Origin: a virus | Reading direction: 5' to 3' (one strand) | IMG/VR virus record: IMGVR_UViG_3300029305_001665 | DNA length: 64,000 bases | In this document: one piece after another, positions 3,256 through 57,354 of the stretch | Layout: each line of letters opens with the position of its first letter | Numbering within the stretch: position 1 is the first letter of the stretch | Made by a program: the position numbers and the translations under genes | Notes under the pieces: generated by a model | Told to the model about the DNA's origin: nothing | Databases searched by the model: none | The model's input: the letters and a program-made list of their open reading frames with translations, nothing else

Positions 3256-4020
3256 TTAGTATTTGTCATAACCATACTTAGGCGGATACCAGAATCCAAC
3301 TACAAGACACGGCGTTCTTCCGTCGTCGGCTAATTGAGTAGTAAAGTGCGGCTTGATTAGACTCCAATCGGCTCTCCAGCCTATGGTATAACCGATATCA
3401 GTGGGATACAAACCTAGTTCCGTATAAAAGTCGTTCAACGATATTTCTTCACCGTTATTCATTTTGCGGTTTAATACATTAGCGATGCTTTCTATTTCGA
3501 TCTTGCTCGAATAGAAGTAACGTCCGCAAGTATTGTCGTAACATAAAGTATCGCCTTTACCAGTCTGTATAATTTCACTACCACTAGGCGGGTTTTTGGT
3601 AACTTTTTCCCTCATTATAGCTTCGCGTACTTCCTGCTCCTTCTTTTCACCAACCGTTTCTACTACTTTTTCGCGATATTCTGCTATAGCAGTTTCGGAA
3701 AGCTTATAAGCTGCTGCTAATGCGCTATAACGTTTAGCGTGTACGGTGTTGGAGCCAAGAATACATGCGATAGACGCTGCTCCGGATAATGCTGCTGGCA
3801 CGTAATACTTCCAAGTGCATTTGATTGTTTCTTTCATAGGAAGTTTATCGGTGTGTAGTTCTCTCTTCTTCTCTTCAACTGCCTTTAAAGCTTTGGGCGT
3901 AGCTTTTGCCGAAAATACCGCAGTTACTACAACGCCGGCCGCTCCAAGTCCAGTTAAGATTTCAGGTGTGTGCTCGGATAGAAATCTTCGAGTTGCTTTG
4001 AATAAAGTGTGTTTGCTCAT
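3256..4020 (-). CDS. hypothetical protein, paralog B of the 888..1870 gene
   Basis: 254 aa. Shares conserved blocks with paralog A. N-terminal basic stretch followed by a Gly/Ala-rich helix. Confidence 0.5.
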   Translation of the reverse strand: MSKHTLFKATRRFLSEHTPEILTGLGAAGVVVTAVFSAKATPKALKAVEEKKRELHTDKLPMKETIKCTWKYYVPAALSGAASIACILGSNTVHAKRYSALAAAYKLSETAIAEYREKVVETVGEKKEQEVREAIMREKVTKNPPSGSEIIQTGKGDTLCYDNTCGRYFYSSKIEIESIANVLNRKMNNGEEISLNDFYTELGLYPTDIGYTIGWRADWSLIKPHFTTQLADDGRTPCLVVGFWYPPKYGYDKY

Positions 4021-35543: not shown

Positions 35544-36392
35544 TTATTTCTTTTTCTTTTTCTTTTCGGTTTCTTTTTTAGCTAATTTTACGCTGTTTCC
35601 GACGTATCGAGTGTTGAGCCAGCTACTTCCGCGATCGGAGCTATCTTTAACGTGATTATAAGGGTCTTCCATCGAGTACTCGCTAGATTCGGTCTTATAT
35701 TCGTAAGATGCTTCAGACTTGGTTTCTTTCTTAGGTTCTTCTTTCGGCTTTTCGTCAGATTTCTTCGGTTCTTCCTTCTTAGGTTTCTCTTCGGATTTCT
35801 TAGGCTCTTCTTTCGGCTTTTCGTCAGATTTCTTAGGCTCTTCTTTCGGCTTTTCGTCAGATTTCTTCGGTTCTTCCTCAGCCTCTTCCTCAGCCTTCTT
35901 TTCTTTCTTACCGAAAATCGCATCGTGCGCTTTCCTTGTCTTATCTAATGTCAGATCCTTTGCCTTACGCTTCTGCTCGGCCTTTTCCCTAAGTCCAAAT
36001 AAATTACCAAAGGGAGTCTTTTCATCGATTACGTCAGTAAGAGCATCTACGCCAGCATTGGCATAGTGATCCACGAATCTTTTAGCGGAGTTCTTACCGG
36101 TGTCGATCATTAGACCTTTAAACCATTCAGCTACTTTTTCTTTATTAGACATAGTAGCTTTTCTGTATCTTTCTTCCGCTTCTATACGAGACGTCACGTC
36201 GTTAATTTCCTTAGTGCTCATGGCTTTAAGGCTTTTGCGTTCTAACGTCTTCTTATAATCAGCATGTTCTTCGTCGTCATCGTTATCGGCTTTAGCTTGG
36301 GCACGTTTCTGGTTGAGCTCATACTGCTGCTTCTTTCTGTGACCCCATCGCATGCCGGGAACGCCATAATGGAGAAGTTCTTTATCATCCAT
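35544..36392 (-). CDS. Lys/Glu-rich tandem-repeat protein in the position where a terminase small subunit is expected
   Basis: 282 aa. C-terminal tandem repeats SDEKPKEEPKK, which are 33-bp DNA repeats around 35700..35890. No recognisable terminase-small-subunit HTH. Confidence 0.4.
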   Translation of the reverse strand: MDDKELLHYGVPGMRWGHRKKQQYELNQKRAQAKADNDDDEEHADYKKTLERKSLKAMSTKEINDVTSRIEAEERYRKATMSNKEKVAEWFKGLMIDTGKNSAKRFVDHYANAGVDALTDVIDEKTPFGNLFGLREKAEQKRKAKDLTLDKTRKAHDAIFGKKEKKAEEEAEEEPKKSDEKPKEEPKKSDEKPKEEPKKSEEKPKKEEPKKSDEKPKEEPKKETKSEASYEYKTESSEYSMEDPYNHVKDSSDRGSSWLNTRYVGNSVKLAKKETEKKKKKK

Positions 36393-41764: not shown

Positions 41765-41765
41765 T

Positions 41766-43679
41766 TTATTCCTCCGTTATGCTCTCCGACGTACCCTGGA
41801 CTGCGTATACTATGTCATCTCCGGTAACTTTGATTACACGATAATTTTCATTATCTTCTATTTTTTCAGTATTTTCATATAGACTAATGAATGTGTACCA
41901 ATCATACGTATCGGTAGTAATTTTACGAGCCTGATCGAAATATATAGTATGATACTCTTCACCTTTATATGACGGTATTAATGCGTAATTCGAATCAGAA
42001 AGTATATTACCGCCTATAGTAGCTGAAAAACTACCTAAAGTTTCGTCCGGATTATCGTAAACTTTGAATTCTTTAGTTCCGGACTCTCCAATTACTAACA
42101 CTTTATATGAGTCGCTGGCAGGCTTTTGATCTTGCCCTGTTTCCGGTACGATGGTGATCTCTCCATCGCTTTCGACTAAAAATATAGCGCTGTCATTAGT
42201 CACATCCAAATAAGTAATATTTCCGGTTATATTTTGTATGTTTAACCAGCTATATTCATCCATAGGGTTTTCTAACTTAACGCATAAAAGTTTACTAGAA
42301 CAAGAAACCGTAGCAATATCTTGTCCATTATAACCTAAAGGACCTTGCAATAGATTTATTAGCTCCGAATGCAATATATCTTCGGTATCCATAGCATAGA
42401 CGCCTATTTCGCCCCATGTATCTTCGGGTACATTTATCGTTACGATATACTCGTTCGAGTCGGATACATTATCATCGTCGATTTTCATAATACCTGTTTC
42501 GACATGAATTGTTGCTTCGCCGTTAACGTTAAATTTAATAGCTGACGTACCGGTTGTTGACTCAGTCTCAATGTCTCCTGTACAATTAAAGTCGGAGAAA
42601 AATGGATGATAATCATCATTTCGGTCTTTCATTACTATATATAAGCATCCAGAAGTACATGTTACCTCAACGTTTGTTTTGTAATATGGATACTCTTCCA
42701 ATTTACCAACCAATGTTTCTTCTGATATACCATCTGGAGACGATGTATCGTAAACAAATATCGTTCCTTTGCGAGTATTTCCAGAAGTTATAGATACAGA
42801 ATGTTCGAACATTTCCGGATCTTCCGTCTCCTCTTCTTTTCGATTAGTAGTTGCGACGGCAGTTATACTGGCATCGCTATTAACTTTGAATAGTCGTCCG
42901 ATTCTACTCGATGAAATAAGAGTCATGTTCCCTGAAGTTACGTTTACTGTTTCCCATTCTACGGCATCGGTTACATCTAATTCGAAATATAAGTAGCCAG
43001 TTTTGCAAATTACGCCCGCTTTTGCGTAAACGGACTCTTTACCTCCGCCGAACACTGCGACGCAGTTTTCTTCTCTTGCCTGAAGATTATCATCGGTATC
43101 GTATACTCGGAATTTACCGGAGTTTATGTTCTCGGCGTCAATAATAACAACATATGCGGGGTCGTCACTTGGAACGATGATTTTCTCAGTCGAAACGTAG
43201 ACATCACCGTCAGTATTTACCTTTATTATTTTATAGTTAGACTCGTCTTCGATTAATTCTAGATCTCCGTTTCTAATGGATATGCTTTTAATTTCATTAT
43301 CGTACCCATCTTTGACTTTGATAAATAAATATCCTGATATACATTCGACAATATCCTTTGTTACTATATCTAATTTACCATTAGGAAGAAATGTTAACGG
43401 ATCTCTTAAAGCTCGCACTCCATCGCTATCATATATCTCAAATGGAGTACATGAAATGTTAGTTGTTATGGCGACCTCTGGTCTTAACATATAATATGTA
43501 TACTGAATGTATTTGTCGGTAGTCTGACCAATATAGTAATATACGCGTTCGAAATTTTTTTTGGTATATCTTTCTAATATTTCATCCATTTTATACGCGC
43601 TGTCTATTACTATCGGCACACCTTCAGGAGGCGAGACTAGACTTGCGAAAAAATATTTTTTGTCGTTAAAATAAATCAT
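41766..43679 (-). CDS. multi-domain repeat protein, paralog of the 43722..44525 gene
   Basis: 637 aa. Shares the N-terminus MIY(F/Y)NDKK with its neighbour. About six copies of a ~90-aa module ending in (V/I).C(T/K/I)(S/T)G(Y/F/C)L(Y/F). Confidence 0.5.
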   Translation of the reverse strand: MIYFNDKKYFFASLVSPPEGVPIVIDSAYKMDEILERYTKKNFERVYYYIGQTTDKYIQYTYYMLRPEVAITTNISCTPFEIYDSDGVRALRDPLTFLPNGKLDIVTKDIVECISGYLFIKVKDGYDNEIKSISIRNGDLELIEDESNYKIIKVNTDGDVYVSTEKIIVPSDDPAYVVIIDAENINSGKFRVYDTDDNLQAREENCVAVFGGGKESVYAKAGVICKTGYLYFELDVTDAVEWETVNVTSGNMTLISSSRIGRLFKVNSDASITAVATTNRKEEETEDPEMFEHSVSITSGNTRKGTIFVYDTSSPDGISEETLVGKLEEYPYYKTNVEVTCTSGCLYIVMKDRNDDYHPFFSDFNCTGDIETESTTGTSAIKFNVNGEATIHVETGIMKIDDDNVSDSNEYIVTINVPEDTWGEIGVYAMDTEDILHSELINLLQGPLGYNGQDIATVSCSSKLLCVKLENPMDEYSWLNIQNITGNITYLDVTNDSAIFLVESDGEITIVPETGQDQKPASDSYKVLVIGESGTKEFKVYDNPDETLGSFSATIGGNILSDSNYALIPSYKGEEYHTIYFDQARKITTDTYDWYTFISLYENTEKIEDNENYRVIKVTGDDIVYAVQGTSESITEE

Positions 43680-43721
43680 TAAAAAACCTCCTGAAGTACT
43701 CTAAACACATAATTATTATGT

Positions 43722-44525
43722 TTATCGTTCATAATGTGTATTTGTTTCGACGTGTATCGCACAGCCATCTGCAGTGATATAAAATATTAACCGATTATAT
43801 TCCGGTGTCATTCCGAAATGCACGTTTTCGCTGTAAGAATATTTAGAAAACCATAAATACTCTTCGTTAACGGGCAACGTGATACACAAAACATTTTTTG
43901 TGCACTGCAATGTTATTTCAGTAATATAATCTGGATAACTTTCCAGCGTTGCAACTAGATTTTCTTCATTATCTAATCCGTCATATATAAATATAGATCC
44001 AAAACGAGTATTTGCAGATGTTATCGTTACCGTAGGATATTTAGTATGCATAACAATCGAAACTGGACAATTAATTTTCGTGCACCAATAACGATTATTG
44101 ACGCCGCCGAATATAGAAATTATACTGTCTTGATCGGTCGCTATGTGCTCGCTAAAATATCCGGCTTCATCTTTTGCTATTTCGAAATACAAGAAACCGG
44201 ACGTACACGAAACGGTTATACTTTCTAGACCATTAACAGTGCCCAACAACGTTCCAGCATTTGAAGTTCCATCGTATATATTAAACGACGGAGTATCGGT
44301 GTCAAATTTAGAAATTGTTACATCCGGAAATAACTTATACCAACTGTTTTGCTCATATTGCTCGGTAGAAGGTCCGCAATAATGGTATATTTTATAATAG
44401 TTTTCTTTTTCAGTACCATTTAATAATGCTGTCATTTCAGCTTCGGTAAGAACCGGTTTAGTCATGCCCAGAACGTCTTTCGTATATTTTATTAGTGCGG
44501 TTTTTTTGTCGTTATAATAAATCAT
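43722..44525 (-). CDS. repeat-domain protein, short paralog of the 41766..43679 gene
   Basis: 267 aa. Two copies of the CTSGxLY-type module. Confidence 0.5.
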   Translation of the reverse strand: MIYYNDKKTALIKYTKDVLGMTKPVLTEAEMTALLNGTEKENYYKIYHYCGPSTEQYEQNSWYKLFPDVTISKFDTDTPSFNIYDGTSNAGTLLGTVNGLESITVSCTSGFLYFEIAKDEAGYFSEHIATDQDSIISIFGGVNNRYWCTKINCPVSIVMHTKYPTVTITSANTRFGSIFIYDGLDNEENLVATLESYPDYITEITLQCTKNVLCITLPVNEEYLWFSKYSYSENVHFGMTPEYNRLIFYITADGCAIHVETNTHYER

Positions 44526-44543: not shown

Positions 44544-47354
44544 TCATGTTTTTATCATACTATCAAATAAACAGTAATACATATCATAGTCACTTGGATC
44601 GCCTAAATATGCCGGTATGAATTCGAGATCTAAAGAGAAGTATTCGCCCACCTTATCGCGATCCGCTACGTTTCCTTTAATTCCGATATTCAAATTTACA
44701 CATTCTATTTCAAGGGTATGATTTTCATCGATCGGTTTTCCTTCGTTCAATACCCTTGTCGCAATTGTTATTGACAATACTTCGGAACTATTATATGCAC
44801 CACTTGAATCGCCCCGCACCATCTTTAATATTTTTACCCTATATTGCGTATCGGGGTACGGAACTACGTAATTATCTGTCGGATTTAGACGTAATGTCGT
44901 AGTCTTTTTTGTAAAACCGCTAAACCAAATAGGCTTTGTAGTAACAACTTTTCTAGAACCTGGTATTAGTGTTTGTTTAAACTCTTCTAATTCATACTGT
45001 CTGCTGATTCTTAGTAATTTCGCGATACCGTTATTTGGCACTGATAGTACTTTATATAATTCTTTTATTCTAGGATCCATAATGTAATCTCCCAGCGAGA
45101 CATTATCGACTATATGAGGATAGACTATTTCATTTAATGGTTTTTCAAACGCCTCATATGTTGGGGTAATTCCTTCTAGTTTATTAACCGGGGCGTCGCT
45201 AGCTCCCCAATATACAGTTAACGTAGCGGATTTAGATGGGGCGCCCATCTCGTAATAATACGATTTTACTTTAATATCGATTGACTTATCTACAATACCT
45301 AATGGATCGTAATCATATGTCGTTTCTTTATTACAAAATTTCACAACGTCATCGACATTATATTCACTTCCTTGAAAACCTTTAGAATATATAGAAGTAC
45401 ATATGTAACCATATAAAGTGTATACAAGTTTATTGAGATAATACTGACCTGATGGATGCAGTTCGCCGTACACTGCATCAACTCCTACTTGGCAACAAAT
45501 ATCTCTCATGATACCGTCGCCGTCATATTGATCAGGTCTTGTTAAATCGTTTTTCTTGTTTTTGAAACGGGTGTATGCATTCGATTTAGTGGAGAAACCT
45601 CTGAGTTCTACTGGTTTTGTCTCTCCATCCATGGTTACGAATACTGCTTTTGGCATGTAATTACTGGGTAATTGACTATACGTTGACGTCGTTAGAAATA
45701 TTTCAGCAGATCTATTGGCGAAAGAACTCTTATTTTTGTTTTTCATGTCCTTATATTCAGTTACATGCTGTATTATTGGCTCCGTGCCATTAGCATCATA
45801 GTAAAAACGTTTTGTCCAGTATCTTCCCGAATTGTCAGTATTCGAATCGTTGCTCGGTTGCGGTCTCGTAGATTCTGGGAATTTGATGTACGTATTGGAT
45901 CTTAGACCGTTATTGTCGTAAATATATAGTGGATTACCGTTGGCGTCATAATATTGATAACAGACCAGTTCATCTTTTATTGGCGAAACTTCTGGGAACT
46001 CAAAATCATAAGTAGTTACCATATAACTCGATGAATTATTGTTATACATCACATGCTGTTTATATTCGTCAACCACGATACCTTTCTCTAAGTAATCTAC
46101 CGTGTTCATGGTATTACTTAAATGTTCACGTGTCGTTTCTAATGATGTTTGTATATTCTCGTAGTTTTTATCAAGTTTTTCGATAGTTTCCGTAATGTAA
46201 TTCACGTCACTGTAATCGTCCGTAACAACACTAAGAATGTTCATATTATTAACGACGGCTTCGCCGTGTTTATTTTTTAAATCGTTGATTTCTTTCTCAT
46301 ATTGTTTACTTGTACCCGCGAACATCCATACGTCAGTTCCGTCAATTGTTTCTACATGATCATTCGGAGGATTTGGTAGTCTGAAATCTATTACGGGACT
46401 AGCCGGATTAGCGTTGTTAATATCAATGCTGGCAACCGGATTTTCTGCAGTCACATACTCTACTCTACCAACAGATAATTTAGGCGTTTCGCCGGTATCA
46501 CCCTTCTCGCCCTTTAGCGAAGAAATCGCTATTAAGTTTGTCCAGTTTTCGGGAGCATCTTCAGCATCACAGAGTTTCCATTGAATGTAGCCATCTGATG
46601 CTCTTAATTCGATATTATCGCCTTGTTCACCTTTTAGAGATAAGGACTCAACGACGGTACCGTCTATTTTATTTGTTATCTGGAGGATATTCTTCTCGCC
46701 GTAACCAGGATCGGTGGGATCTAAACTCAAATCTTCGACCCAGTCAAAGCTAGGAACAACTAATTTATTAAAACCTACGATATAATCGGGTGTTTCATCG
46801 GTTAATAAATCGTTATTGTTCATTCCTTTCATAACTTGAAGTACTTCGCAAATAGCGGTTGACCAGTTATAAAGAATTACACCATAAGTAGAAGGATCTT
46901 TGGGATCTGCGTTTGCACCAGCGTCAGTGCATATAAAATGAACTACGAATTCTATGTTACCAGCATATTGGGTAGCATTATTTGATATGTCCCATGAGAA
47001 ACGAAGCACTTCTTCGCCGTCATAATCTGTGGTATTGGGGTATACTTCAAGGTCCGTGACGTTGTATATATCTCTCCTCTTTTCGCTAGTAGTGGCTCCG
47101 GAATTGCGATAGTGAATTTGTACTATATTACACTCGCGCATGTCGTGGCCGTTAATATATCTTGGGATATCAAATACCATTTTAGTACTATTGGTTTCGT
47201 ACTGCATCAACGTATGTTTTTCAGTTTCTACAAATTCTTGCTCAGCTTTATCCCAAACAACGTGTATGATGCTTCTATCTTCGGGATTTATCGTGAAATC
47301 GAGTTCTTCGAATTTCATTATATCGACATTTTTAGTGTGTCCGTCTAAAGGCAT
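44544..47354 (-). CDS. large fibre-like protein with collagen-like Gly-X-Y triplets
   Basis: 936 aa. LKGEQGDNIE and LKGEKGDTGETPK collagen-like triplet runs, as often seen in phage fibres. Confidence 0.5.
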   Translation of the reverse strand: MPLDGHTKNVDIMKFEELDFTINPEDRSIIHVVWDKAEQEFVETEKHTLMQYETNSTKMVFDIPRYINGHDMRECNIVQIHYRNSGATTSEKRRDIYNVTDLEVYPNTTDYDGEEVLRFSWDISNNATQYAGNIEFVVHFICTDAGANADPKDPSTYGVILYNWSTAICEVLQVMKGMNNNDLLTDETPDYIVGFNKLVVPSFDWVEDLSLDPTDPGYGEKNILQITNKIDGTVVESLSLKGEQGDNIELRASDGYIQWKLCDAEDAPENWTNLIAISSLKGEKGDTGETPKLSVGRVEYVTAENPVASIDINNANPASPVIDFRLPNPPNDHVETIDGTDVWMFAGTSKQYEKEINDLKNKHGEAVVNNMNILSVVTDDYSDVNYITETIEKLDKNYENIQTSLETTREHLSNTMNTVDYLEKGIVVDEYKQHVMYNNNSSSYMVTTYDFEFPEVSPIKDELVCYQYYDANGNPLYIYDNNGLRSNTYIKFPESTRPQPSNDSNTDNSGRYWTKRFYYDANGTEPIIQHVTEYKDMKNKNKSSFANRSAEIFLTTSTYSQLPSNYMPKAVFVTMDGETKPVELRGFSTKSNAYTRFKNKKNDLTRPDQYDGDGIMRDICCQVGVDAVYGELHPSGQYYLNKLVYTLYGYICTSIYSKGFQGSEYNVDDVVKFCNKETTYDYDPLGIVDKSIDIKVKSYYYEMGAPSKSATLTVYWGASDAPVNKLEGITPTYEAFEKPLNEIVYPHIVDNVSLGDYIMDPRIKELYKVLSVPNNGIAKLLRISRQYELEEFKQTLIPGSRKVVTTKPIWFSGFTKKTTTLRLNPTDNYVVPYPDTQYRVKILKMVRGDSSGAYNSSEVLSITIATRVLNEGKPIDENHTLEIECVNLNIGIKGNVADRDKVGEYFSLDLEFIPAYLGDPSDYDMYYCLFDSMIKT

Positions 47355-47368: not shown

Positions 47369-47704
47369 TTAATTGCTTTCTGCGTTTATGTTTAATCTAA
47401 ATTCATACTCTTTAAGTTGGTCTTTTAACGCTTCGACCACAAATGAACTTGAAGGCGGATCAAATATTAATCTACATTTAATATAAATGTAAGTTTTAAC
47501 CGCCGTCATTTTACTATAACTTTCTTCGAGGAAGTCGGTCCAAGTCTCGCCCTCTCCAGTTACCATAAAACCTTCTTTGCCGACACCGATTTGGTTCAAC
47601 GCCATGATAGCAGAGTTAATTTCTATAATGATGTCTTCATCGAAATAGGTGTATTCTTGTACAGGACCGAGTTTCTTTTTAATTGATAAAAGTATTGACT
47701 CCAT
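47369..47704 (-). CDS. hypothetical protein (~111 aa)
   Basis: Internal ATG (MESILLS) with an AGGAGAAA RBS is preferred over the upstream in-frame start. Confidence 0.4.
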   Translation of the reverse strand: MESILLSIKKKLGPVQEYTYFDEDIIIEINSAIMALNQIGVGKEGFMVTGEGETWTDFLEESYSKMTAVKTYIYIKCRLIFDPPSSSFVVEALKDQLKEYEFRLNINAESN

Positions 47705-47717
47705 TTTGAATTTCTCC

Positions 47718-48146
47718 TTACTTCTTCCATGGACAGGTGTCGTTTTTAGTCCTCTCAACTGGATCTTTCACCAGTAAATCTTCTGTTCCATAATGTATAG
47801 CATTATGGGTATTATGAGATACGCAAATTAGATACTCAGGGTTGTAGACTAAATCGCTGTCGTTTTCGATATCTTCAAGGGTTATAGGGTTCATATGATG
47901 GACTATGATTTTGTCGTAGATTTCTCTATCTTTGATTCCAAGATCGCACCCGTTGTCCCTGATAATTACTTTACGTCTAGATTCTTGCCACTTTTTAGAT
48001 CGCTGGTATAGATATTGATTGATTGCTCTGTCCCAACCAAACGTGTCTTGACCAACGACACCTCTGAGTTGTAAGTATCTAAAACGTTCTTCGAAAGTTG
48101 GCAACCTGCGGAGTTCAGAGTATGTTCTAATATACATCGTCTTCAT
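47718..48146 (-). CDS. HNH endonuclease
   Basis: 142 aa. C-terminal VHHMNPITL...CVSHNTHNAIHYG matches the HNH motif (His-Asn-His with flanking Cys/His). Confidence 0.75.
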   Translation of the reverse strand: MKTMYIRTYSELRRLPTFEERFRYLQLRGVVGQDTFGWDRAINQYLYQRSKKWQESRRKVIIRDNGCDLGIKDREIYDKIIVHHMNPITLEDIENDSDLVYNPEYLICVSHNTHNAIHYGTEDLLVKDPVERTKNDTCPWKK

Positions 48147-48462
48147 CCTCAGTATTACCGCTGTATCTTTTCATAGCAGCAAGTGCATCTTTATAAAGCT
48201 CTTTAACCTCTTTCTGAGATTCTAATGCTTCTGTTTTAGCTCTGAGGAGTTTGTTCTCTTCTTCTAGTCGTTCCTTTTCTAGCTTAGCTGTGGTTGAACC
48301 TAGCTTAAGATAGTGAGTTATGACTTGTGAAGAGGCTGTACCCTCTCTTAATTGTTTCTCGGCCAAGTCTACCGCCAGAGAGATGAGCTGATTCTCTCTA
48401 GTTTCGGGATTTATGGCCGGTCTTTTGACTTGAACGGATTTCGAGTCTATTACTTTAGCCAT
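48127..48462 (-). CDS. small DNA-binding-like protein with coiled coil, candidate terminase small subunit or late regulator
   Basis: 111 aa. Sits just downstream of the GC-rich repeat region and just upstream of the HNH gene; HNH and terminase small-subunit genes are a common pairing. Sequence support is weak. Confidence 0.3.
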   Translation of the reverse strand: MAKVIDSKSVQVKRPAINPETRENQLISLAVDLAEKQLREGTASSQVITHYLKLGSTTAKLEKERLEEENKLLRAKTEALESQKEVKELYKDALAAMKRYSGNTEDEDDVY

Positions 48463-48738
48463 ACTCTCAGCCTCCTTTGTATGGTTTTAGTATTAGTTGT
48501 TAAGTAGTTTGTGACAGTACTTACTAAGATCCACATGACTTTCACATGATTTATTTACCGAAAGGAGAAAGAAAAGTCCTACACCACTAATTAGCCATGT
48601 GGACCTTGGTAAATACTGCCTTTCCGCCGGGGAAAATATAGAAAAGTTTTCTGAAAATATACCCCCGGGGAAAAATATAAGACCGGCGCGATGCTAGGAG
48701 GGGGTGTATTTTTGGCGACCCCCCCCTATGTTTAATGG
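48463..48738. promoter_or_regulatory. GC-rich repeat/palindrome region at the head of the late gene block (candidate cos/pac site or late promoter)
   Basis: In otherwise AT-rich DNA: ccgccggggaaaatatagaaaag and cccccggggaaaaatataagacc direct repeats, a palindromic CCCCGGGG, and a G8...C5 hairpin (ggagggggtg...gacccccccc). Confidence 0.35.
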
Positions 48739-49017
48739 TCACTCATCGTCGCCTTCATCTGTCATTTCTGCAGTATTCATGTAGATTTTCTTGTAAATAT
48801 GTAAAGGATCGTGATAAATTATTTCATCAATTGCTCTTTCTGTTTCGATTTTTACTTCTTCTTCAGTCATGTTATCTTTAATCTTTGCGATTCGATCTAA
48901 GTAACCACAAGAATTGTAACCTTTTTCAATGTCAAACAAGAACCAAGCTTTAAAGTCATCGAAAGGATTGAAAGGATTGTCAATTGTAGTTAACATACAT
49001 TGTTTTCTCATAATCAT
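48739..49017 (-). CDS. hypothetical protein (92 aa)
   Basis: Start overlaps the stop of the polymerase-like gene by 4 nt. Confidence 0.4.
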   Translation of the reverse strand: MIMRKQCMLTTIDNPFNPFDDFKAWFLFDIEKGYNSCGYLDRIAKIKDNMTEEEVKIETERAIDEIIYHDPLHIYKKIYMNTAEMTDEGDDE

Positions 49018-52000
49018 TTAACTCCTTTCAAGTATTTCGAAACAGTTGAAGGCGATTTGCCCATCTTTTTAGCAATCTCTTCTAAACTATAGTTAGAAGC
49101 AGCTAAAGCTTTCATTCTACTAATTTGATTCTGTGTAACAGTAGTAGTTGCTTTAGGGGTGGCCCTTTCTCTAAGCTTATCTATATCAGTGTTAGCTAGT
49201 ATAGCATTCAATGTACTGGCACCAATAGCACCGGCTTGAATAGCTTCCCATTCTCTATCACTAATGTCTATATTACGATCTTTTCTAGAAACGGAACCAA
49301 CTTCTGCTCTAGCATTCTGTAATACTTGTGTTTTACGCTTTGATAATTCTTTAGCTTTGATGTTGGGGTCATCTAACTTCATTAGAGCCCCTGCTGCATC
49401 CGCTTGGCGCTGAGCATAGCGTTCACGGGGGGCATTCTTTAACGCCTCGTTCAGACTAGCTTTAAGGGTGGCTATCTCGTTAGCATAAGTCTTCTTAGCT
49501 TCCTTATTTACTTGTATATCTTTCTCAAAGTAGAGTGTCTTTCTAGCTTCATTAGCTAGGGCCTTCATTTCATTGGCATAGTTAGCGTATGCTTTTTCTT
49601 TAACGTCACCTTTAGGTGAAAGTAAACTAAGGGCGTCATCGGTTTCCATCATGGCGGTACTCTTTTGAGTACGAGCCTTAGCTCTATAGAAGATTGTTCT
49701 GTCCTTATTTGAATAAGCGGGTTCTCCAGTTGCGGGGTCCGTAGTTAGAACGGGCGCATACTTACCAGTTTTGGGGTCCTTCTCTTCAAGTAGGGCATAC
49801 TTCTCTACAGCAGCGGGGTCTTTAGTATTATAAGATAGCTTCTTACCATTAGTAGTCCTAAGGGTCTGCATGCTTGTATTCTTATCATAGTGTCTATCTT
49901 CAGGATAGTATAAATCATCCGCTAGTTTATAAACATTAGCACCTTCAGGCTTAGTAGGATCATACCAATCAGTACCTTTGATGTTAATCTTAGGAGAACC
50001 TTGACGTTTAAGTACCGATACCTCACTCTTGGCTCTTGATAATAAAGTAGATGCTCCACCATACTTTATTTCACCGTTATCCATAACTTTAATTTGATAA
50101 GTAGCTCTTAACGATTTAATATCGTTATCTTTTTCGCTCTTTTTATAATCAAGTTTGTGTTTACCGGCATCTATAACAACCATTGAATGACGAACGGCTC
50201 TGGCTAATTCATCTTCAGAAGCACCATTCAAATTCATATCTGTAATTAGGTTAGAAATCTTACCCATTTCCATTTGAGTATTATCTTTACCTGTCTTTGG
50301 GTCCTTCATATAACGCATCCCTGGAACTTCAGGATACGCTAACTTAGGATCAAATCCTTCGAGATCTTTCAAAGGAGGTCTATGAACTATTTTAACTTTG
50401 CCAGTGGGATCGTGTGTAGGAATACACATTACAGTATCACCATCGAAGTCTGCTCCTGATAGCTGATCAGCAATCTTTTTATTAATACCAACAGCATCTA
50501 TGCTTTGTTTGCCAATCCATTTCGAACCCAATGCGTTCTTGTTATTAACAGTAAGTACTGGGATTTCGAATGTGCCAGCATGCGGATAACGAATTAAAGC
50601 TAATTTAGTACCATTTTCATATTGAGGCGCAAATACTTCGTTATCTTTCAATGTATTAATAGGAAGAATAACGTGATATTTTTGCCCAGGTAAAGCAGCA
50701 GCCTTTAAATGTACTGCAGCAGAGTCGCATTCATCAGCAAACTTAGCTAGGAAATACTTTTTAATAGTAGGATTCTCTAGAGCACATATTTCTTCAAATT
50801 CAGCTCTCTTATCAGTCTTGGCTAAATCTAATTGTTTGTTAATAAGGGCTAAACTTTGTTTACCTAAGAATTGTGAAGGTAAAGCATCTTGCCATTCGGA
50901 CCAATCACCTTCTGAAGACTTCTTATTGATAAGAGATAGCTGTTCTTTACCATTTTCGTCTGTATAATAGCTTTGACCTTCCGGCATAATAAGAGCACCA
51001 AACGGGTTGTCTGGATTCTTCTTATCTATTTCCTTAAGAACTTCCATCTTAGACTTAGTGCTCGGTTTATTGGTGTTAAATATAATATCGACACCTTCAG
51101 GCATTTCATCATCAGTATGAACAGCCATACCTTTTACATAGTGTGTGCCATCTACTAATATGCGAACTTGCGCATAGTGATCATTTCCTAAAGAAACATC
51201 TTTTACACCTCTTCTGATTTCGACAGTGCCATCTTTATCACCGCCAGTGAAACCATCGGGACCAACTTCATCGACATATCTTATTTTTATACGACTAGAG
51301 TCCATTGAAGCAGGATACTCAAACTTTTTAAATTTAGTTCCACCTTCTTTAGCTACATAATGTTCTTCGTTTAAAGGATGGATATCCGCACCAGGCTTAT
51401 ATACTTCTGCATATTCAGTACCAGGCGAACAAATGATTTTATTTGTGGTTTGGAATCCTGCATTAGTAGATTGTTCAACTCTTCTGTTATAAACAGGATA
51501 TCCTTCTCTTTGCAAAGCATGTAAAGCTAAATCAAGCCTTTCTTCGGAAATATGAAGTTCTTTATCAACGCCTTTGCCTACGTCAACCATTTTATTTTTG
51601 TCAACTTGGGTACGAATATGGTCAATAAGCGCTACACATTCTTTTATTTTTGCATCCGAATTCGGTTCGAGCCAACCCCTAACAGTAGATTCGCTTCTTC
51701 CCATTCGGCGGCCTATCTCAGTAGGTCCAAGACCGTCTTCGCTTAAAGATTTAGCTCTGTCGATTAAAAGACTGTCTCTTTCGTATTGTGCTAAAGCTTT
51801 TTCATTACGATATTGTTTCATAGTAATGCCGAATTCTCTTTTGATACTTTCTGCATTTTCTTTGAAACCTTGTTTCTTTAATTCTTCTACTCTGGCGAGG
51901 AAGTCTTCACCATGCTGATAGGGTGTATCACCTGAGCCCCAAGGATATCTTCCTGAACGGAATTTAACTCCATAGTGCATCAATATGTCTTCCGCTATTG

Positions 52001-52040
52001 GATTCATAATGTTAGCCCTCCTCGTTTTCGATTTTGTCAA
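49014..52040 (-). CDS. YonO-like single-subunit RNA polymerase (two double-psi beta-barrel domains), fused to N- and C-terminal HTH domains
   Basis: 1008 aa. Residues ~530 contain SGADFDGDTVMCIPTHD, which matches the universal beta-prime catalytic NADFDGD (approx. nt 50434..50448). Residues ~300-330, VDGTHYVKGMAVHTDDEMPEGVDIIFNTNKPSTKSKM, parallel the beta-subunit motif GNKGV.SKI.P.EDMPY...G.PVDIVLNPLGVPSRMN. An HTH lies at ~100-125 (LGPTEIGRRMGRSESTVRGWL) and another at the C-terminus (YSLEEIAKKMGKSPSTVSKYLKG). Confidence 0.55.
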   Translation of the reverse strand: MTKSKTRRANIMNPIAEDILMHYGVKFRSGRYPWGSGDTPYQHGEDFLARVEELKKQGFKENAESIKREFGITMKQYRNEKALAQYERDSLLIDRAKSLSEDGLGPTEIGRRMGRSESTVRGWLEPNSDAKIKECVALIDHIRTQVDKNKMVDVGKGVDKELHISEERLDLALHALQREGYPVYNRRVEQSTNAGFQTTNKIICSPGTEYAEVYKPGADIHPLNEEHYVAKEGGTKFKKFEYPASMDSSRIKIRYVDEVGPDGFTGGDKDGTVEIRRGVKDVSLGNDHYAQVRILVDGTHYVKGMAVHTDDEMPEGVDIIFNTNKPSTKSKMEVLKEIDKKNPDNPFGALIMPEGQSYYTDENGKEQLSLINKKSSEGDWSEWQDALPSQFLGKQSLALINKQLDLAKTDKRAEFEEICALENPTIKKYFLAKFADECDSAAVHLKAAALPGQKYHVILPINTLKDNEVFAPQYENGTKLALIRYPHAGTFEIPVLTVNNKNALGSKWIGKQSIDAVGINKKIADQLSGADFDGDTVMCIPTHDPTGKVKIVHRPPLKDLEGFDPKLAYPEVPGMRYMKDPKTGKDNTQMEMGKISNLITDMNLNGASEDELARAVRHSMVVIDAGKHKLDYKKSEKDNDIKSLRATYQIKVMDNGEIKYGGASTLLSRAKSEVSVLKRQGSPKINIKGTDWYDPTKPEGANVYKLADDLYYPEDRHYDKNTSMQTLRTTNGKKLSYNTKDPAAVEKYALLEEKDPKTGKYAPVLTTDPATGEPAYSNKDRTIFYRAKARTQKSTAMMETDDALSLLSPKGDVKEKAYANYANEMKALANEARKTLYFEKDIQVNKEAKKTYANEIATLKASLNEALKNAPRERYAQRQADAAGALMKLDDPNIKAKELSKRKTQVLQNARAEVGSVSRKDRNIDISDREWEAIQAGAIGASTLNAILANTDIDKLRERATPKATTTVTQNQISRMKALAASNYSLEEIAKKMGKSPSTVSKYLKGVK

Positions 52041-52587
52041 ATAGTCTGTCTAAGTATGTAACACGATCCATAATTGGCAATATATTTGCAGCGGTCGGTG
52101 TATGGTATATGACTTCATCGTTTTGATATATTCTAAGTTCAAAGTCTATATCGCCCGGCTTAATTTTATATTCCAAACAAAAGAAAGCAGCATATACTTC
52201 AAGCTGCTCCATACGTGCTGGTGTGGTACCAGTCTTTAAATCGTGTATTCTTAATATCATTCTTCCGGTAGCAGGATTTTTTCTAAAAGAAATGGCGTCT
52301 GCTGTACCAAAGAATCTGTGAGAAACAAACAGAACAACCTCTGTCTGCATTTTAAAACCTATAGCATCATTAACATATGAATACAAGGTCTTTTTAGATT
52401 TCGGTTGTTTTATTTTTAAATCAATAGTTTTCTTAGCCCATTCATGTAATTGAGTTCCTCTTTCAGTAGCTTTCATTTCGGTAAACACTTCTACTGCTTT
52501 TTCATCAGGATATCTCAACCAATGAGATTTGCTAGGACTGAATGGGGCATGAAGCCCTGCTAGTTTTGAGTGATCATTAAAGCGCAT
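52012..52587 (-). CDS. PD-(D/E)xK-superfamily nuclease (RecB/Cas4-like fold)
   Basis: 191 aa. FGTADAISF...ILRIHDLKTG fits the D...(D/E)xK-TG pattern of RecB-family nuclease motifs II-III. Confidence 0.45.
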   Translation of the reverse strand: MRFNDHSKLAGLHAPFSPSKSHWLRYPDEKAVEVFTEMKATERGTQLHEWAKKTIDLKIKQPKSKKTLYSYVNDAIGFKMQTEVVLFVSHRFFGTADAISFRKNPATGRMILRIHDLKTGTTPARMEQLEVYAAFFCLEYKIKPGDIDFELRIYQNDEVIYHTPTAANILPIMDRVTYLDRLFDKIENEEG

Positions 52588-52599: not shown

Positions 52600-52890
52600 T
52601 TAAATTGTAAAATGTAAATATAATGCATCTAATACCGCATCTTTATTCTCGGGATAAATAAATGATGCAAACGACATTTGATCCATTAATTCAACATAAT
52701 ATGGTTGATTAGGCCGAGCAGGTGCAGTTGCGCTCTTTTTACCTTCAAGCGCGGCCCAGCGATTTCTGTACAAAATTAAAAGATCAGGTATTCCCTGATA
52801 CTCGTTAGGGTCCATATGTAATATAATGCAGCCAGGAAACATACTTTCTAACTCATTAACCAAATTTGTTTTAAATCTGTTTTCTAACAT
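52600..52890 (-). CDS. VRR-NUC domain nuclease
   Basis: 96 aa. GIPDLLILYRNRWAALEGKK matches the VRR-NUC PD...(E)xK core. Confidence 0.5.
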   Translation of the reverse strand: MLENRFKTNLVNELESMFPGCIILHMDPNEYQGIPDLLILYRNRWAALEGKKSATAPARPNQPYYVELMDQMSFASFIYPENKDAVLDALYLHFTI

Positions 52891-53351: not shown

Positions 53352-53762
53352 TTACTCTATATATAAATCATTTGGTGTGCATCCGAGCGCTTTTGCTAGT
53401 TTAGTAACAAAGCGAAAACCCGGCATATTTTTGCCAGTTAAATATCCGTTAAGAGTGCATCTATTGATGCCTAACTCTGCTGCTAGTTCTTCTTGGGTAT
53501 ATCCCTTACGATGTAATCTCCATTTAACTCGTCTAGCAAATTCTCTTTTCCAAATTTCGTCAGTAACATTTCCGCTATTGTAACTAACGATTCTGATACT
53601 TCTGTTTAAATCGTCATAGACCTTCACTGTTCCATCCGGATATTTAATTATCAGTTCGAATGGATTATAGTTCTCGTTGCACTCGAAATCCGTCCCTTCT
53701 ATATTCTCGGTAGGGAAATATAGAAAGAAATTATCGATTAAATTATCAAGTTGCTCACTCAT
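53352..53762 (-). CDS. XRE-family HTH regulator (C-terminal HTH)
   Basis: 136 aa. C-terminal YTQEELAAELGINRCTLNGYLTGKNMPGFRFVTKLAKALGCTPNDLY is an XRE HTH. Confidence 0.6.
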   Translation of the reverse strand: MSEQLDNLIDNFFLYFPTENIEGTDFECNENYNPFELIIKYPDGTVKVYDDLNRSIRIVSYNSGNVTDEIWKREFARRVKWRLHRKGYTQEELAAELGINRCTLNGYLTGKNMPGFRFVTKLAKALGCTPNDLYIE

Positions 53763-53940: not shown

Positions 53941-54175
53941 CCCTCGAAAGTCACTCAAATCACCTCAAAACACCCCAAAAAGGGCCTAAAATGACCGTTT
54001 TTAGCCACTTCAAGCCCATTTTTAAGCATTTTTCTCTGCCCGTTTTTTCTAAAATTTTTGGGCTTTTGCCCACTTTTTTTGTCCATAGCCCATTTTCAGT
54101 TTTTCTTGCCCGTTTTTTCTGCCCACTTTTTTCGGGCTTTTGCCCGTTTTTTCTAAACTTTTTGGGCAAGGATTT
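53941..54175. repeat. iteron-like direct repeat array in a 440-bp non-coding gap (candidate replication origin or regulator-binding array)
   Basis: TGCCCGTTTTTTCT occurs three times, GCCCACTTTTTT twice, GGGCTTTTGCCC twice and AAA(A/C)TTTTTGGGC twice, interleaved with T-tracts. Both ORFs drawn over it are low-complexity artefacts. Confidence 0.45.
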
Positions 54176-54202: not shown

Positions 54203-54607
54203 CTAACTCTCCGACTTATAATGGCAATCTAGGATATCATCGATGACTCCATGTACGTCCTTCAAGGCCATCTTTTCATCGGGAACATCAATCCAAAGTA
54301 CTGATTTCAAGGTTTTAGCGAAAGCTCTAACAGCATCGTTGGACGACTTCCCAGTCGCTACATAGTTGTTTAGTTCCAACTTATATTCCCCTTCAGACAT
54401 TACTCTAACTACGTTGTCGCCTTGAAAAGTGACTTCCCCGCACTCTTTTATAAATAACAGTGCTCGACCGTCTTTTAAGTAAATAAGTGGATTATCTTTA
54501 ACACTTTTTACAGTGTCAATTAAAGGTTCACATGCGTTCCAGGTGTACATATGCAAGAAATGTTCAGTGTTACTATTAGAACATAAAATAATATAATTTT
54601 TAACCAT
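54203..54607 (-). CDS. hypothetical protein (134 aa)
   Basis: Intact ORF with RBS. Confidence 0.4.
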   Translation of the reverse strand: MVKNYIILCSNSNTEHFLHMYTWNACEPLIDTVKSVKDNPLIYLKDGRALLFIKECGEVTFQGDNVVRVMSEGEYKLELNNYVATGKSSNDAVRAFAKTLKSVLWIDVPDEKMALKDVHGVIDDILDCHYKSES

Positions 54608-56694: not shown

Positions 56695-57354
56695 CTATTC
56701 AAAATCACAGACTTTTATTTTAGTAATAATGCGCTTACCGTCTCTAGAACATAGCTCTAAAGCAGGTCTAGCAACTACCCCTTCCATAGGAGCTCTACCG
56801 CTTAAAAACGAAACGGGTTTGCTCTTTACGTACTTTACTAATTCAGGAAGAATACCAGTTTTAACAATAGGAACCACTTCAAGATTAAGCGCCCCGGCAA
56901 TCTGTACTACATTCTTACGTTCTAAATAGAGCCCGTTATCCATAGAGCCAACCCAAATATCAAACAAAATAAAACCTACATCATCACGATATAGGTCTCC
57001 GACTTTCTGTATTCTAGTTCCGTATCCTTCGCCGAATAAGATAACTTCTTTTTCACCAAACATCTGCTCAAAGAGTTGTTCAGTTTCTGGGTTCTGGAAC
57101 ATTTCGTTAAGTTTAGCCAATAAGTGACTGGGAATTTCTGATTTTTCAGTTCTACCACCAAAGGTAATGGCATGACCATCCCAATATACTCTGATACCAG
57201 TGCCGTCTACTTTTTCAGTAGCAATCCATAAACAATATTGAAGATATTCTATAGTGGGATTGTTATAAACACCTTCCAATAACTTCTTCGTTCCGGTAGT
57301 TTCTCTTTGAAATATGTTTTCTATTTTATGATATTTTTTCATACACACCTCCAA
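56695..57354 (-). CDS. ATP-dependent RNA/DNA ligase-like nucleotidyltransferase (RNA ligase family)
   Basis: 219 aa. ATEKVDGTGIRV carries the KxDG adenylylation motif I. Downstream EGYG and KIKV resemble motifs IV/V. Confidence 0.5.
   Translation of the reverse strand: MEVCMKKYHKIENIFQRETTGTKKLLEGVYNNPTIEYLQYCLWIATEKVDGTGIRVYWDGHAITFGGRTEKSEIPSHLLAKLNEMFQNPETEQLFEQMFGEKEVILFGEGYGTRIQKVGDLYRDDVGFILFDIWVGSMDNGLYLERKNVVQIAGALNLEVVPIVKTGILPELVKYVKSKPVSFLSGRAPMEGVVARPALELCSRDGKRIITKIKVCDFE

What the first reader, a model, noticed from the sequence alone, without database searches (positions are those of the whole stretch)
49014..52040. Phage-encoded single-polypeptide RNA polymerase of the YonO type, fused to HTH domains at both ends
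The 1008-aa product carries a beta-like motif (KGMAVHTDDEMPEGVDIIFNTNKPSTKSKM) and a beta-prime-like catalytic motif (GADFDGDTVMC). These are the hallmarks of the two double-psi beta-barrels of multisubunit RNA polymerases, here joined in one chain as in Bacillus phage SPbeta YonO. Unlike what I recall for YonO, this protein also has two sigma region-4-like HTH modules, at the N-terminus and at the extreme C-terminus. That could give built-in promoter recognition. It sits at the head of the late block, next to two nucleases.
Basis: partly seen in the sequence, partly recalled or inferred. Interest (0 to 1): 0.85.

Follow-up and report, generated by a model that had tools for sequence, protein, structure and literature searches.

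The report
Phage two-barrel RNA polymerase with HTHs
This temperate phage gene encodes a single-chain relative of cellular RNA polymerases with DNA-binding modules at both ends; the prediction is sound, but the family (typified by Lactococcus phage 1706 ORF75) and its HTH ends were already described computationally, and nobody has yet tested what it does.

Summary

It is not a YonO-family member: BLASTP E 0.8, a different PHROG, and YonO lacks HTHs. It is a full-length ortholog (38% identity) of Lactococcus phage 1706 ORF75, the type of one of five published "YonO-like" families. Koert et al. (bioRxiv 842583) already reported the double HTH and DxDGD. The family has about 1,210 clusters at 50% identity, all with this architecture, and always lies endonuclease-exonuclease-polymerase-small ORF-cos.

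Most likely function, by inference only: a DNA-dependent RNA polymerase for late genes that finds its site through its own HTHs. No experimental work was found.

New leads:
- The invariant N-terminal peptide is a divergent DUF7211 motif. It is shared with proteins beside terminase/portal, one labelled structural in 1706.
- The cos-proximal non-coding block is more conserved than flanking genes.

Verdict: new member of a known, uncharacterised kind.

The parts
49014..52007 (-). Polymerase gene, 997 aa from ATG 52007.
   Evidence: GGAGG RBS; 997-aa gene call in a 99%-identical contig. phrog_4291 at 1096 bits. 38% full-length identity to phage 1706 ORF75.
51930..51992 (-). Invariant N-terminal peptide EDILMHYGVKFRSGRYPWGSG, a divergent DUF7211-type motif that is disordered in the model.
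   Evidence: Invariant H11, G13, S18-G19-R20, G24-S25-G26. pLDDT below 50. Weak DUF7211 hit at 12.2 bits. Same peptide type in other phage proteins. Tandem canonical plus divergent copies in P0064.
51594..51917 (-). N-terminal helical DNA-binding region. The Pfam HTH_23 core maps to about 51669-51746.
50913..51245 (-). First (beta-like, DPBB-B) barrel, residues ~255-365. It contains QVRI...Y-V-KGMA...DIIFNTNK.
   Evidence: Strand pattern in the model. Invariant D259, D270, R282, K292, D299, D307, N311, K314. Aligns to YonO FMVRLPWVKGLL at E 0.036. Long alignments to single-chain two-barrel RNAPs.
50415..50681 (-). Second (beta'-like, DPBB-A) catalytic barrel, residues ~443-531, with R473-Y-P475-H476 and G-A-D520-F-D522-G-D524.
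50097..50279 (-). Post-barrel helices with invariant MGxISNLITDM and VVIDAxKH motifs, shared with YonO.
   Evidence: hhalign pairs them with YonO IGEYSNNITKIW and FTIDFAKT (E 0.0027 over 157 columns).
49656..50093 (-). Beta-rich domain containing a lineage-specific insertion (residues ~690-775) that is absent from the actinophage branch.
   Evidence: Conservation drops to 0.02-0.36. Secondary structure.
49026..49259 (-). C-terminal pair of three-helix units. The last (about 49026-49124) is the HTH_38 / Sigma70_r4_2-type HTH.
   Evidence: Helices 917-993. Invariant E919, W920, Q924, G926, A927, L933, L937, N939.
48739..49017 (-). Small acidic-tailed ORF (92 aa, phrog_4303). Its ATG overlaps the polymerase stop (ATGA). 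It is always the last gene before the genome end.
   Evidence: Homologs are CaptnMurica gp88, 1706 orf76, and the ORFs in L004, L006, L007 and L008.
48463..48738 (.). Hyper-conserved non-coding region. It holds a cos-type GC-rich block (about 48685-48735) and a ~65-bp invariant block just upstream of the first late gene. It is a candidate site for the polymerase's HTHs or a promoter.
   Evidence: It is 80-84% identical against 64-76% for flanking coding DNA. The 65.6-kb contig L008 ends inside the block. The block is kept in L003.
52012..52587 (-). RecB/Cas4-like exonuclease (phrog_3953), immediately upstream and co-conserved.
   Evidence: Synteny.
52600..52890 (-). Small endonuclease (phrog_93), co-conserved upstream.
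   Evidence: Synteny.
47369..48462 (-). First late genes after cos: phrog_4259 (48127-48462), HNH endonuclease (47718-48146) and head-tail connector (47369-47758).
   Evidence: Phage_connect_2 in relatives.
35544..36392 (-). 282-aa protein with a canonical DUF7211 N-terminal peptide, next to the terminase large subunit (33785-35530). It links the polymerase's N-terminal peptide to the head-morphogenesis module.
   Evidence: Pfam DUF7211 at 33.4 bits against a cut-off of 27, and the TerL assignment.

Best explanation
The gene encodes a single-polypeptide nucleotide polymerase built on two double-psi beta-barrels. It belongs to the QDE-1 / YonO-like clade and, within it, to the Lactococcus phage 1706 ORF75 family.

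Catalysis would use a Mg2+ held by D520/D522/D524 in the beta'-like barrel. R473/P475 and basic residues of the beta-like barrel (most likely R282 and K292) would complete the active site.

[quoted passage not shown] I also infer that, unlike YonO, it finds its start site through its own HTH modules. The most plausible target is the unusually conserved non-coding block next to cos. From there it would transcribe the structural (late) genes that follow once the cos ends are joined.

Shown: the fold, the catalytic-motif invariance, the HTH domains, the uniform architecture and the conserved genome position. Inferred: RNA synthesis, DNA template, promoter specificity, timing and target genes.
For: - Motifs: R-x-P-H...DFDGD and the first-barrel residues are invariant across 52 sequences at 42-88% identity. 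The protein satisfies the [RK]xPx{20,100}DxDxD filter used for two-barrel RNAPs.
- Shared motifs with YonO beyond the triad. YonO is a proven DNA-dependent RNAP for SPbeta late genes (PMC5467207).
- HTHs are present in all 150 best of 1,210 family clusters.
- Position: always endonuclease-exonuclease-polymerase-small ORF-genome end, directly upstream of the late genes on the circular map.
- The non-coding block downstream is more conserved than the flanking genes.
- No dispersed promoter motif was found, which fits one or a few sites, as for YonO.
Against: - No biochemical or genetic data for any family member were found.
- The closest solved structures are RNAi RdRPs, and databases label the family 'RNA-dependent RNA polymerase'.
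- The conserved non-coding block may be explained entirely by cos and terminase recognition.
- No terminator separates the polymerase operon from the late genes, so host RNAP read-through could suffice.
- First-barrel catalytic residues are assigned only through weak alignments (E 0.036).
- The structural evidence rests on a predicted model.
Confidence: 0.5

Rival explanations
1. Replication primase or origin-activating RNA polymerase. The two-barrel enzyme, tethered by its HTHs to a specific site, makes RNA primers or an origin transcript for phage DNA replication, or for processing and replicating the cos-proximal end. It would work with the adjacent exonuclease and endonuclease.
For: Relatives place it at the end of the replication/recombination module: helicase, endonuclease, exonuclease, polymerase. 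CaptnMurica and 1706 have a DNA polymerase and a helicase but no annotated primase. The two nucleases are tightly co-conserved.
Against: The window phage keeps the nuclease-polymerase module although no DNA polymerase or helicase-sized gene is detectable in its early region. No primase fold appeared among the structural hits. The only characterised phage homolog class, YonO, is a processive transcriptase.
Confidence: 0.15
2. Virion-packaged, co-injected RNA polymerase, like N4 vRNAP, crAss gp66 or P23-45 gp96. The invariant N-terminal DUF7211-type peptide targets it into the capsid together with other DUF7211-headed cargo proteins. It would transcribe the incoming genome.
For: - The N-terminal peptide is invariant yet disordered in the model.
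- Canonical DUF7211 heads proteins encoded beside terminase and portal: window 35544-36392 and CaptnMurica gp8-gp11.
- 1706 orf7 carries the motif and is labelled 'structural protein'. phrog_35934 is labelled 'virion structural protein'.
- P0064 has canonical and polymerase-type peptides in tandem.
- The conserved-head, variable-cargo pattern resembles capsid-targeting signals. This comparison rests on my own knowledge of T4 internal proteins.
Against: 1706 ORF75 is not labelled structural, although small unexpected proteins are. The target scores only 12 bits on DUF7211, below the cut-off of 27. In P0177/P0161 the peptide is internal, after a 2H domain. The window phage is temperate (integrase), so induction must work without a packaged enzyme. 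No function is known for DUF7211.
Confidence: 0.1
3. True RNA-dependent RNA polymerase, as annotated in PHROGs and GenBank. It would copy or amplify phage or host RNA, for example to make dsRNA or regulatory RNA.
For: The best structural matches are QDE-1 and RDR2. There is a weak Pfam PF05183 hit. The phrog_4291 label and the record annotations say so. An RNA ligase-like gene is in the window, and some homologs carry 2H phosphoesterase fusions.
Against: The label is transferred from remote homology only. YonO has the same ancestry and is DNA-dependent. QDE-1 itself also uses DNA templates (PMC9508822 abstract). Two DNA-binding HTH modules and a fixed position beside cos argue for a DNA substrate.
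Confidence: 0.06
4. Catalytically dead scaffold: essentially an HTH transcription factor or cos-binding packaging accessory that retains a relic polymerase fold.
For: SEA-PHAGES records annotate it only as 'helix-turn-helix DNA binding protein'. There are weak HTH resemblances to terminase small-subunit families. It lies adjacent to cos.
Against: All catalytic-site residues are invariant across 52 diverse sequences, and the architecture is uniform over about 1,210 clusters. Such purifying selection on a metal-binding triad implies activity.
Confidence: 0.03

Closest known systems
Lactococcus phage 1706 ORF75 family. This is one of the five 'YonO-like' families of Ruprich-Robert & Thuriaux 2010. 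It is the same as phrog_4291 and the 'HTH domain-containing protein / putative RNA polymerase' of Koert et al. (FP_oengus AUV56548.1, Streptomyces BI, Arthrobacter AM/AU/AW, Gordonia DJ and others).
   Same: Full-length homology at 38% identity over residues 6-997. Shared features are the N-terminal peptide, the N-terminal HTH, both barrels, the DFDGD triad, the C-terminal HTH, and the synteny endonuclease-exonuclease-polymerase-small ORF-genome end.
   Different: It comes from a temperate gut-type phage (serine integrase, 39% GC), while the characterised isolates appear lytic. It carries a ~85-aa beta-rich insertion (residues ~690-775) that the actinophage branch lacks. No DNA polymerase or helicase gene was detected in the window.
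Bacillus prophage SPbeta YonO (phrog_8308), a proven single-chain DNA-dependent RNAP for late genes
   Same: Single chain with two barrels in beta-then-beta' order. Shared motifs are R-x-P-H, DxDGD, 'G.ISN.IT' and 'ID..K'. Both are temperate Firmicutes phages. In both, the gene lies just upstream of the late/structural operon, with an exonuclease nearby.
   Different: There is no significant pairwise similarity (E 0.8) and whole-profile hhalign probability is 1.5%. YonO is 839 aa with no HTH. Instead it has four invariant C-terminal cysteines, a likely zinc ribbon. The triad is DNDGD versus DFDGD.
Neurospora QDE-1 and plant RDR2 (eukaryotic RNAi RNA-dependent/DNA-dependent RNA polymerases; Pfam PF05183)
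   Different: Sequence identity is about 10-16%. The Pfam RdRP score is below threshold (12.6 bits against 23.8). They have no HTH modules, and their biology is eukaryotic RNA silencing.
Other phage single-chain two-barrel RNAPs: Thermus phage P23-45 gp64 / P74-26 gp62 and TMP-fused gp96; crAss-like phi14:2 gp66
   Different: They are unrelated outside the core. None has flanking HTH modules. gp96 and gp66 are virion-packaged and gp64 transcribes early genes (PMC10770324).

Membership tests
Two-double-psi-beta-barrel (two-barrel) polymerase superfamily | Two DPBB domains in one catalytic unit, here in one chain | tested here: met
   The AF2 model (pLDDT 80) gives long alignments to QDE-1 (423 aa), RDR2 (439), crAss gp66 (428) and P74 gp62 (376). 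It also hits isolated DPBBs at rmsd 2.1 A. This rests on a predicted structure, not a solved one.
Two-double-psi-beta-barrel (two-barrel) polymerase superfamily | beta'-type signature [RK]-x-P followed 20-100 residues later by the DxDxD metal triad (5 of the 8 universally invariant residues) | tested here: met
   R473-Y-P475, then 44 residues, then D520-F-D522-G-D524. All are invariant in 52 sequences. The criterion comes from PMC2919709 and PMC10770324 Supplementary Data 4.
Two-double-psi-beta-barrel (two-barrel) polymerase superfamily | beta-type barrel residues: one Asp and two basic residues (QDE-1 D709, R738, K743) | tested here: inconclusive
   Invariant candidates exist: D259 or D270, R282 and K292. 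The assignment rests on a weak alignment to YonO R266/K271 (E 0.036).
YonO family proper (SPbeta YonO, phrog_8308) | Significant full-length sequence similarity to YonO | tested here: not met
   BLASTP E 0.8. hhalign probability 1.5%, with only 78 columns aligned. PHROG 4291 versus 8308.
YonO family proper (SPbeta YonO, phrog_8308) | Architecture: ~840 aa, no HTH, C-terminal four-Cys cluster | tested here: not met
   The target is 997 aa with HTHs at both ends and no Cys cluster.
YonO family proper (SPbeta YonO, phrog_8308) | DNA-dependent, processive RNA synthesis that transcribes phage late genes | not testable with these tools
   This needs biochemistry and genetics. Only positional analogy is available.
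Phage 1706 ORF75-type 'YonO-like' family (phrog_4291) | Full-length homology to 1706 ORF75 and its actinophage orthologs | tested here: met
   38% identity over residues 6-997, E = 0. phrog_4291 at 1096 bits. 250 phage records, nearly all full length.
Phage 1706 ORF75-type 'YonO-like' family (phrog_4291) | [quoted passage not shown] | tested here: met
   All 150 best of 1,210 clusters align to profile positions ~7-898 of 900.
Phage 1706 ORF75-type 'YonO-like' family (phrog_4291) | Conserved position: endonuclease, exonuclease, polymerase, small ORF, physical genome end | tested here: met
   A contig end falls inside the cos block.
Eukaryotic-type RdRP (Pfam PF05183) | Pfam gathering score | tested here: not met
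   12.6 bits against a cut-off of 23.8, covering only the DFDGD region. The fold is nevertheless closest to QDE-1 and RDR2.
Sigma-70 region 4 | HTH matching sigma region 4 models, in the context of other sigma regions | tested here: inconclusive
   The C-terminal HTH passes Sigma70_r4_2 (28.0 bits against 25.7), but HTH_38 scores higher (37.7). The N-terminal HTH matches HTH_23/HTH_29 only. No sigma region 2 or 3 is present. Structural sub-hits are transposase-type HTHs.
Primases (DnaG, archaeo-eukaryotic primase, PrimPol) | Toprim or AEP catalytic fold | tested here: not met
DUF7211 (PF23847) N-terminal peptide proteins | Pfam gathering score for the 25-aa motif | tested here: not met
   The target scores 12.2 bits against a cut-off of 27. 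The motif is visibly related: HYG-x-K/R...WG preceded by an acidic-L segment. It stands in tandem with a canonical copy in P0064.

The most novel reading that the evidence does not exclude
The enzyme is a self-sufficient, promoter-specific two-barrel RNA polymerase in which the HTH modules replace a sigma factor. Its invariant N-terminal DUF7211-type peptide is a capsid- or portal-targeting signal. That signal would load the polymerase into the virion for co-injection, together with a variable set of DUF7211-headed cargo proteins encoded beside terminase and portal. This would define a new delivery system for internal proteins in a very large group of Gram-positive siphophages.
Probability: 0.1. 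Interest if true: 0.8.

Novelty: new member of a known kind. Interest (0 to 1): 0.4.

Why it matters
Two-barrel RNA polymerases are the enzymes of all cellular transcription. Minimal single-chain versions such as YonO are studied as models of their ancestor, yet how YonO finds its promoter is still unknown (PMC5467207).

This family is far more abundant than is generally appreciated: at least 8,000 clusters at 90% identity and about 1,210 at 50%. It occurs in easily cultured Arthrobacter, Gordonia, Streptomyces and Lactococcus phages. It has DNA-binding modules built in, so it could offer a tractable case of factor-independent promoter recognition by a two-barrel enzyme. Most database records still call it merely an 'HTH DNA-binding protein' or, misleadingly, an 'RNA-dependent RNA polymerase'.

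The window itself adds only another member. The additional value lies in two leads that, as far as I could find, are not in the literature:
- the DUF7211-type N-terminal peptide, shared with proteins of the head-morphogenesis module;
- the hyper-conserved non-coding block between the polymerase module and the late genes.

Tried and rejected
- **PDB by sequence.** The single protein gave no hit. The family profile gave only marginal HTH matches.
- **Megablast of the 11-kb neighbourhood against phage records.** No match.
- **AFDB Foldseek, intended to hit the YonO model directly.** The library was unavailable. BFVD gave only other 'RdRP'-labelled phage proteins.
- **Dispersed phage-specific promoter in the window's intergenic regions.** Only Shine-Dalgarno motifs recur. 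The TATATTTT(T)CCCCGG repeat is confined to the cos region and is not enriched.
- **Sigma-70 promoter and terminator scan.** Promoter-like sites are barely above shuffled expectation. No terminator lies between the polymerase and the late genes.
- **Genome-contig scan.** It returned one locus, a MAG contig that is itself phage-like, so there is no host assignment.
- **P23-45 paper's family table.** It covers only viruses with two RNAPs and could not be mapped to this family.
- **Arthrobacter phage survey.** It says nothing about the gene.
- **Literature searches for DUF7211 and the peptide.** Nothing found.
- **Pfam on the small co-conserved ORFs and nucleases.** No hits.
- **Primase fold.** Considered and rejected on the structural hits.


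Full report
**1. The observation**

The ORF reported at 49014-52040 exists on the minus strand, 1008 aa from a TTG. The likely true start is the ATG at 52007. It has a GGAGG ribosome-binding site 9 nt upstream and lies 4 nt after the stop of the upstream exonuclease gene. A 99%-identical metagenomic protein is called at 997 aa. I number residues from this Met.

Pfam finds HTH_23 near the N-terminus and HTH_38 / Sigma70_r4_2 at the extreme C-terminus (E about 1e-9 to 1e-6). It also gives a sub-threshold RdRP (PF05183) hit over the DFDGD region. PHROGs places the protein in phrog_4291, 'RNA-dependent RNA polymerase', at 1096 bits.

**2. What the core is**

Sequence searches against solved structures find nothing, either with the single sequence or the family profile. 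I therefore built a 52-sequence alignment at 42-88% identity to the query. It combines the gut/Firmicutes branch and the actinophage branch. I used it for AlphaFold2, which gave mean pLDDT 80.1 and pTM 0.67.

- AR9 and phiKZ beta', ASFV and vaccinia RPB1 homologs.
- crAss phi14:2 virion RNAP: 428 residues aligned.
- Maize RDR2: 439 residues aligned.
- PolD DP2.
- Isolated or designed DPBB domains at 2.1 A rmsd.

In Foldseek, the only significant PDB hits are QDE-1 (E 4.7e-8) and RDR2 (E 1.4e-6 to 2e-3), all at probability 1.00. No primase or right-hand polymerase fold appears. The core is a paired-DPBB polymerase.

**3. Catalytic residues**

The literature defines eight residues invariant in all two-barrel RNAPs (PMC2919709). 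Five of them are unambiguous here and invariant in all 52 sequences: R473, P475, D520, D522 and D524.

For the beta-like barrel there are invariant candidates: D259 or D270, R282 and K292. A region-restricted profile comparison aligns target QVRI...Y-x-KGMA to YonO FMVRLPWVKGLL, but only at E 0.036. I rate this part inconclusive.

**4. Relation to YonO**

I fetched YonO from the SPbeta record. The comparison gives:
- BLASTP against the target: E 0.8. The best segment does pair LIRYPH...GADFDGD with ILRSPH...QFDNDGD.
- YonO has no Pfam domain and belongs to phrog_8308.
- None of 120 YonO homologs has an HTH domain.
- The YonO family instead has four invariant C-terminal cysteines.
- Whole-profile hhalign: 78 aligned columns, E 0.034, probability 1.5%.
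- Restricted to the second barrel, the alignment extends to 157 columns (E 0.0027). It pairs two further invariant motifs: MGxISNLITDM with IGEYSNNITKIW, and VVIDAxKH with FTIDFAKT.

The two proteins therefore share ancestry within the single-chain clade, but the target is not a YonO-family member.

**5. The family it does belong to**

tblastn finds 250 phage records from Arthrobacter, Gordonia, Streptomyces, Lactococcus, Faecalibacterium and gut siphoviruses. Nearly all cover residues ~17-1005. The window protein is 38% identical to Lactococcus phage 1706 ORF75 over residues 6-997.

Ruprich-Robert and Thuriaux (2010) named the 1706 protein as the type of one of five distantly related 'YonO-like' families. 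Koert et al. (bioRxiv 10.1101/842583) studied exactly this supercluster. They reported an HHpred hit to PF05183, HTH domains at both ends and the DxDGD motif, and suggested RNA polymerase activity.

I found no experimental study of the family.

An exhaustive profile search finds 1,210 clusters at 50% identity with E at or below 1e-30. All 150 best hits match the profile end to end. The architecture is therefore uniform.

**6. Context**

Almost all genes in the window are on the minus strand. Reading in the direction of transcription, the order is:
- an XRE-type regulator, 53352-53762;
- a 101-aa ORF;
- an endonuclease, 52600-52890;
- a RecB-like exonuclease, 52012-52587;
- the polymerase;
- a translationally coupled 92-aa ORF, 48739-49017;
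- a 276-bp non-coding stretch;
- the late genes: phrog_4259, HNH, head-tail connector, and later a DUF7211 protein, TerL, portal and the protease-capsid fusion.

The same order, ending at the physical genome end, is seen in CaptnMurica (gp85-88 of 88) and 1706 (orf68-76 of 76, with some intervening genes).

A 65.6-kb metagenomic contig ends inside the GC-rich block of the non-coding stretch. A relative whose polymerase is only 55% identical keeps that block. The block is therefore the cos region, and the window represents the circular or integrated form.

The phage is temperate: a serine integrase lies at 7985-9349 on the plus strand. I detected no DNA polymerase, helicase or primase in the window. 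CaptnMurica and 1706 have a DNA polymerase and a helicase but no annotated primase.

**7. Mechanism**

[quoted passage not shown] It rests on:
- analogy with YonO, a proven late-gene DdRP that also sits just upstream of its late operon;
- the DNA-binding modules;
- the fixed position of the gene.

The non-coding stretch between the module and the late genes is 80-84% identical between phages whose flanking genes are 64-76% identical. Besides the cos block, it contains a ~65-bp invariant block directly upstream of the first late gene. That block is a candidate recognition site, although cos and terminase functions could explain the conservation. No dispersed promoter motif exists in the window.

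None of this shows activity, so my confidence is about 0.5. The rivals are:
- a primase or origin-transcribing enzyme (0.15);
- a virion-packaged polymerase (0.10);
- a true RdRP (0.06);
- an inactive DNA-binding scaffold (0.03).

**8. An unexpected lead**

The first ~26 residues are disordered in the model, yet they contain the most invariant stretch of the protein, HYG-x3-RSGRYPWGSG.

A related peptide, acidic-x-L-x-HYG-V-K-G-M-K-W-G, is Pfam DUF7211. It heads:
- a 282-aa protein encoded next to TerL in the window (33.4 bits against a cut-off of 27);
- CaptnMurica gp8-gp11, between TerL and portal (46-56 bits);
- a weaker, sub-threshold match in CaptnMurica gp6 (13.8 bits).

Phage 1706 orf7, directly upstream of TerL and labelled 'structural protein', has it too. 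One matching PHROG is labelled 'virion structural protein'. Homolog P0064 has a canonical DUF7211 peptide, a ~170-aa domain, and then the polymerase-type peptide and the polymerase.

A conserved head with variable cargo suggests a targeting signal, possibly for packaging into the capsid. This comparison rests on my own knowledge of T4 capsid-targeting sequences.

Evidence against this reading:
- 1706 ORF75 is not labelled structural.
- The target is below the Pfam threshold.
- In P0177/P0161 the peptide follows an N-terminal 2H phosphoesterase domain.
- No literature on the motif was found.

**9. Verdict**

'YonO type' holds only at the clade level. The HTH fusion is real, but it is a known, family-wide feature. 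The window adds a new member, from a temperate gut-type phage, to a known but biochemically uncharacterised kind. Interest is moderate. The family as a whole deserves experiments, and the two leads above are the new content.

Noticed in passing
window 48463-48738: This non-coding stretch is more conserved than the flanking genes: 80-84% against 64-76% identity to L007. It has a cos-type block, GGGGGGGTCGCCAAAAATACACCCCCTCCTAGCAT|CGCGCCGGTC, where a 65.6-kb contig ends. It also has two local copies of TATATTTT(T)CCCCGG and a ~65-bp invariant block (GGACTTTTCTTTTCTCCTTTCGGTAAATAAATCATG..AAAGT.ATGTGGATCTTAGTAAGTACTG) containing a TCATGTG direct repeat just upstream of the first late gene.
   Followed up: partly
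window 35544-36392 (-); L005 (CaptnMurica) gp6, gp8-gp11; L009 (1706) orf7: DUF7211, an uncharacterised ~25-aa N-terminal peptide (DDFLxHYGVKGMKWG), heads several otherwise unrelated small proteins clustered around terminase and portal. The polymerase carries a divergent copy. This looks like a shared targeting signal on variable cargo.
   Followed up: partly
homologs P0177, P0161, P0170: Some actinophage-branch polymerases carry an N-terminal 2H phosphoesterase domain (PF13563, two HxTL motifs; faint resemblance to anti-CBASS Acb1) fused ahead of the conserved peptide.
   Followed up: partly
homolog P0064, 1183 aa: This is a fusion of a canonical DUF7211-headed ~200-aa module (with a GDAPGAD motif and an unidentified domain) to the polymerase. 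It gives two DUF7211-type peptides in tandem in one chain.
   Followed up: partly
L002:11356-13875 (YonO) and alignment A2: The YonO family has four invariant C-terminal cysteines (C799, C802, C816, C819), a likely zinc ribbon, where the 1706-type family has an HTH. Some JGI records mislabel YonO homologs as 'ribosomal protein L37E'.
   Followed up: no
window 7985-9349 (+): A large serine recombinase/integrase is the only sizeable plus-strand gene, so the phage is temperate. The whole 64-kb window appears to be phage, probably a near-complete circularly permuted or integrated genome. Relatives have 56-68-kb contigs.
   Followed up: partly
window 44544-47354 (-) and 39524-44525 (-): A 936-aa protein with a collagen-like G-x-y stretch, plus several large ORFs with no PHROG hit, sit between the head-tail connector and the terminase. 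They are tail-fibre-like genes placed ahead of the packaging genes, an arrangement also noted for some Arthrobacter phages.
   Followed up: no
window 53982-54146 and 54491-54519: A cluster of strong terminator-like hairpins on both strands, and an 11/12 sigma-70-like promoter (TTGACA-17-GATAAT), lie just upstream of the operon that contains the regulator, the nucleases and the polymerase. They mark a likely transcription-unit boundary.
   Followed up: no
window 888-1940 (-) and 3256-4020 (-): Two paralogous DUF6353 (phrog_2152) genes of unknown function lie in the early region.
   Followed up: no
window 56695-57354, 58722-59684, 59986-61200, 57634-58689 (all -): The early region encodes an RNA ligase-like protein, a calcineurin-type/SbcD-like phosphoesterase, a DNA methyltransferase and an SPFH/Band-7 protein. 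No DNA polymerase, helicase or primase is recognisable.
   Followed up: partly
window 49656-50093 (-), protein residues ~690-775: This beta-rich insertion is specific to the gut/Firmicutes branch of the polymerase family. Column conservation there is about 0.02. Its function is unknown.
   Followed up: no
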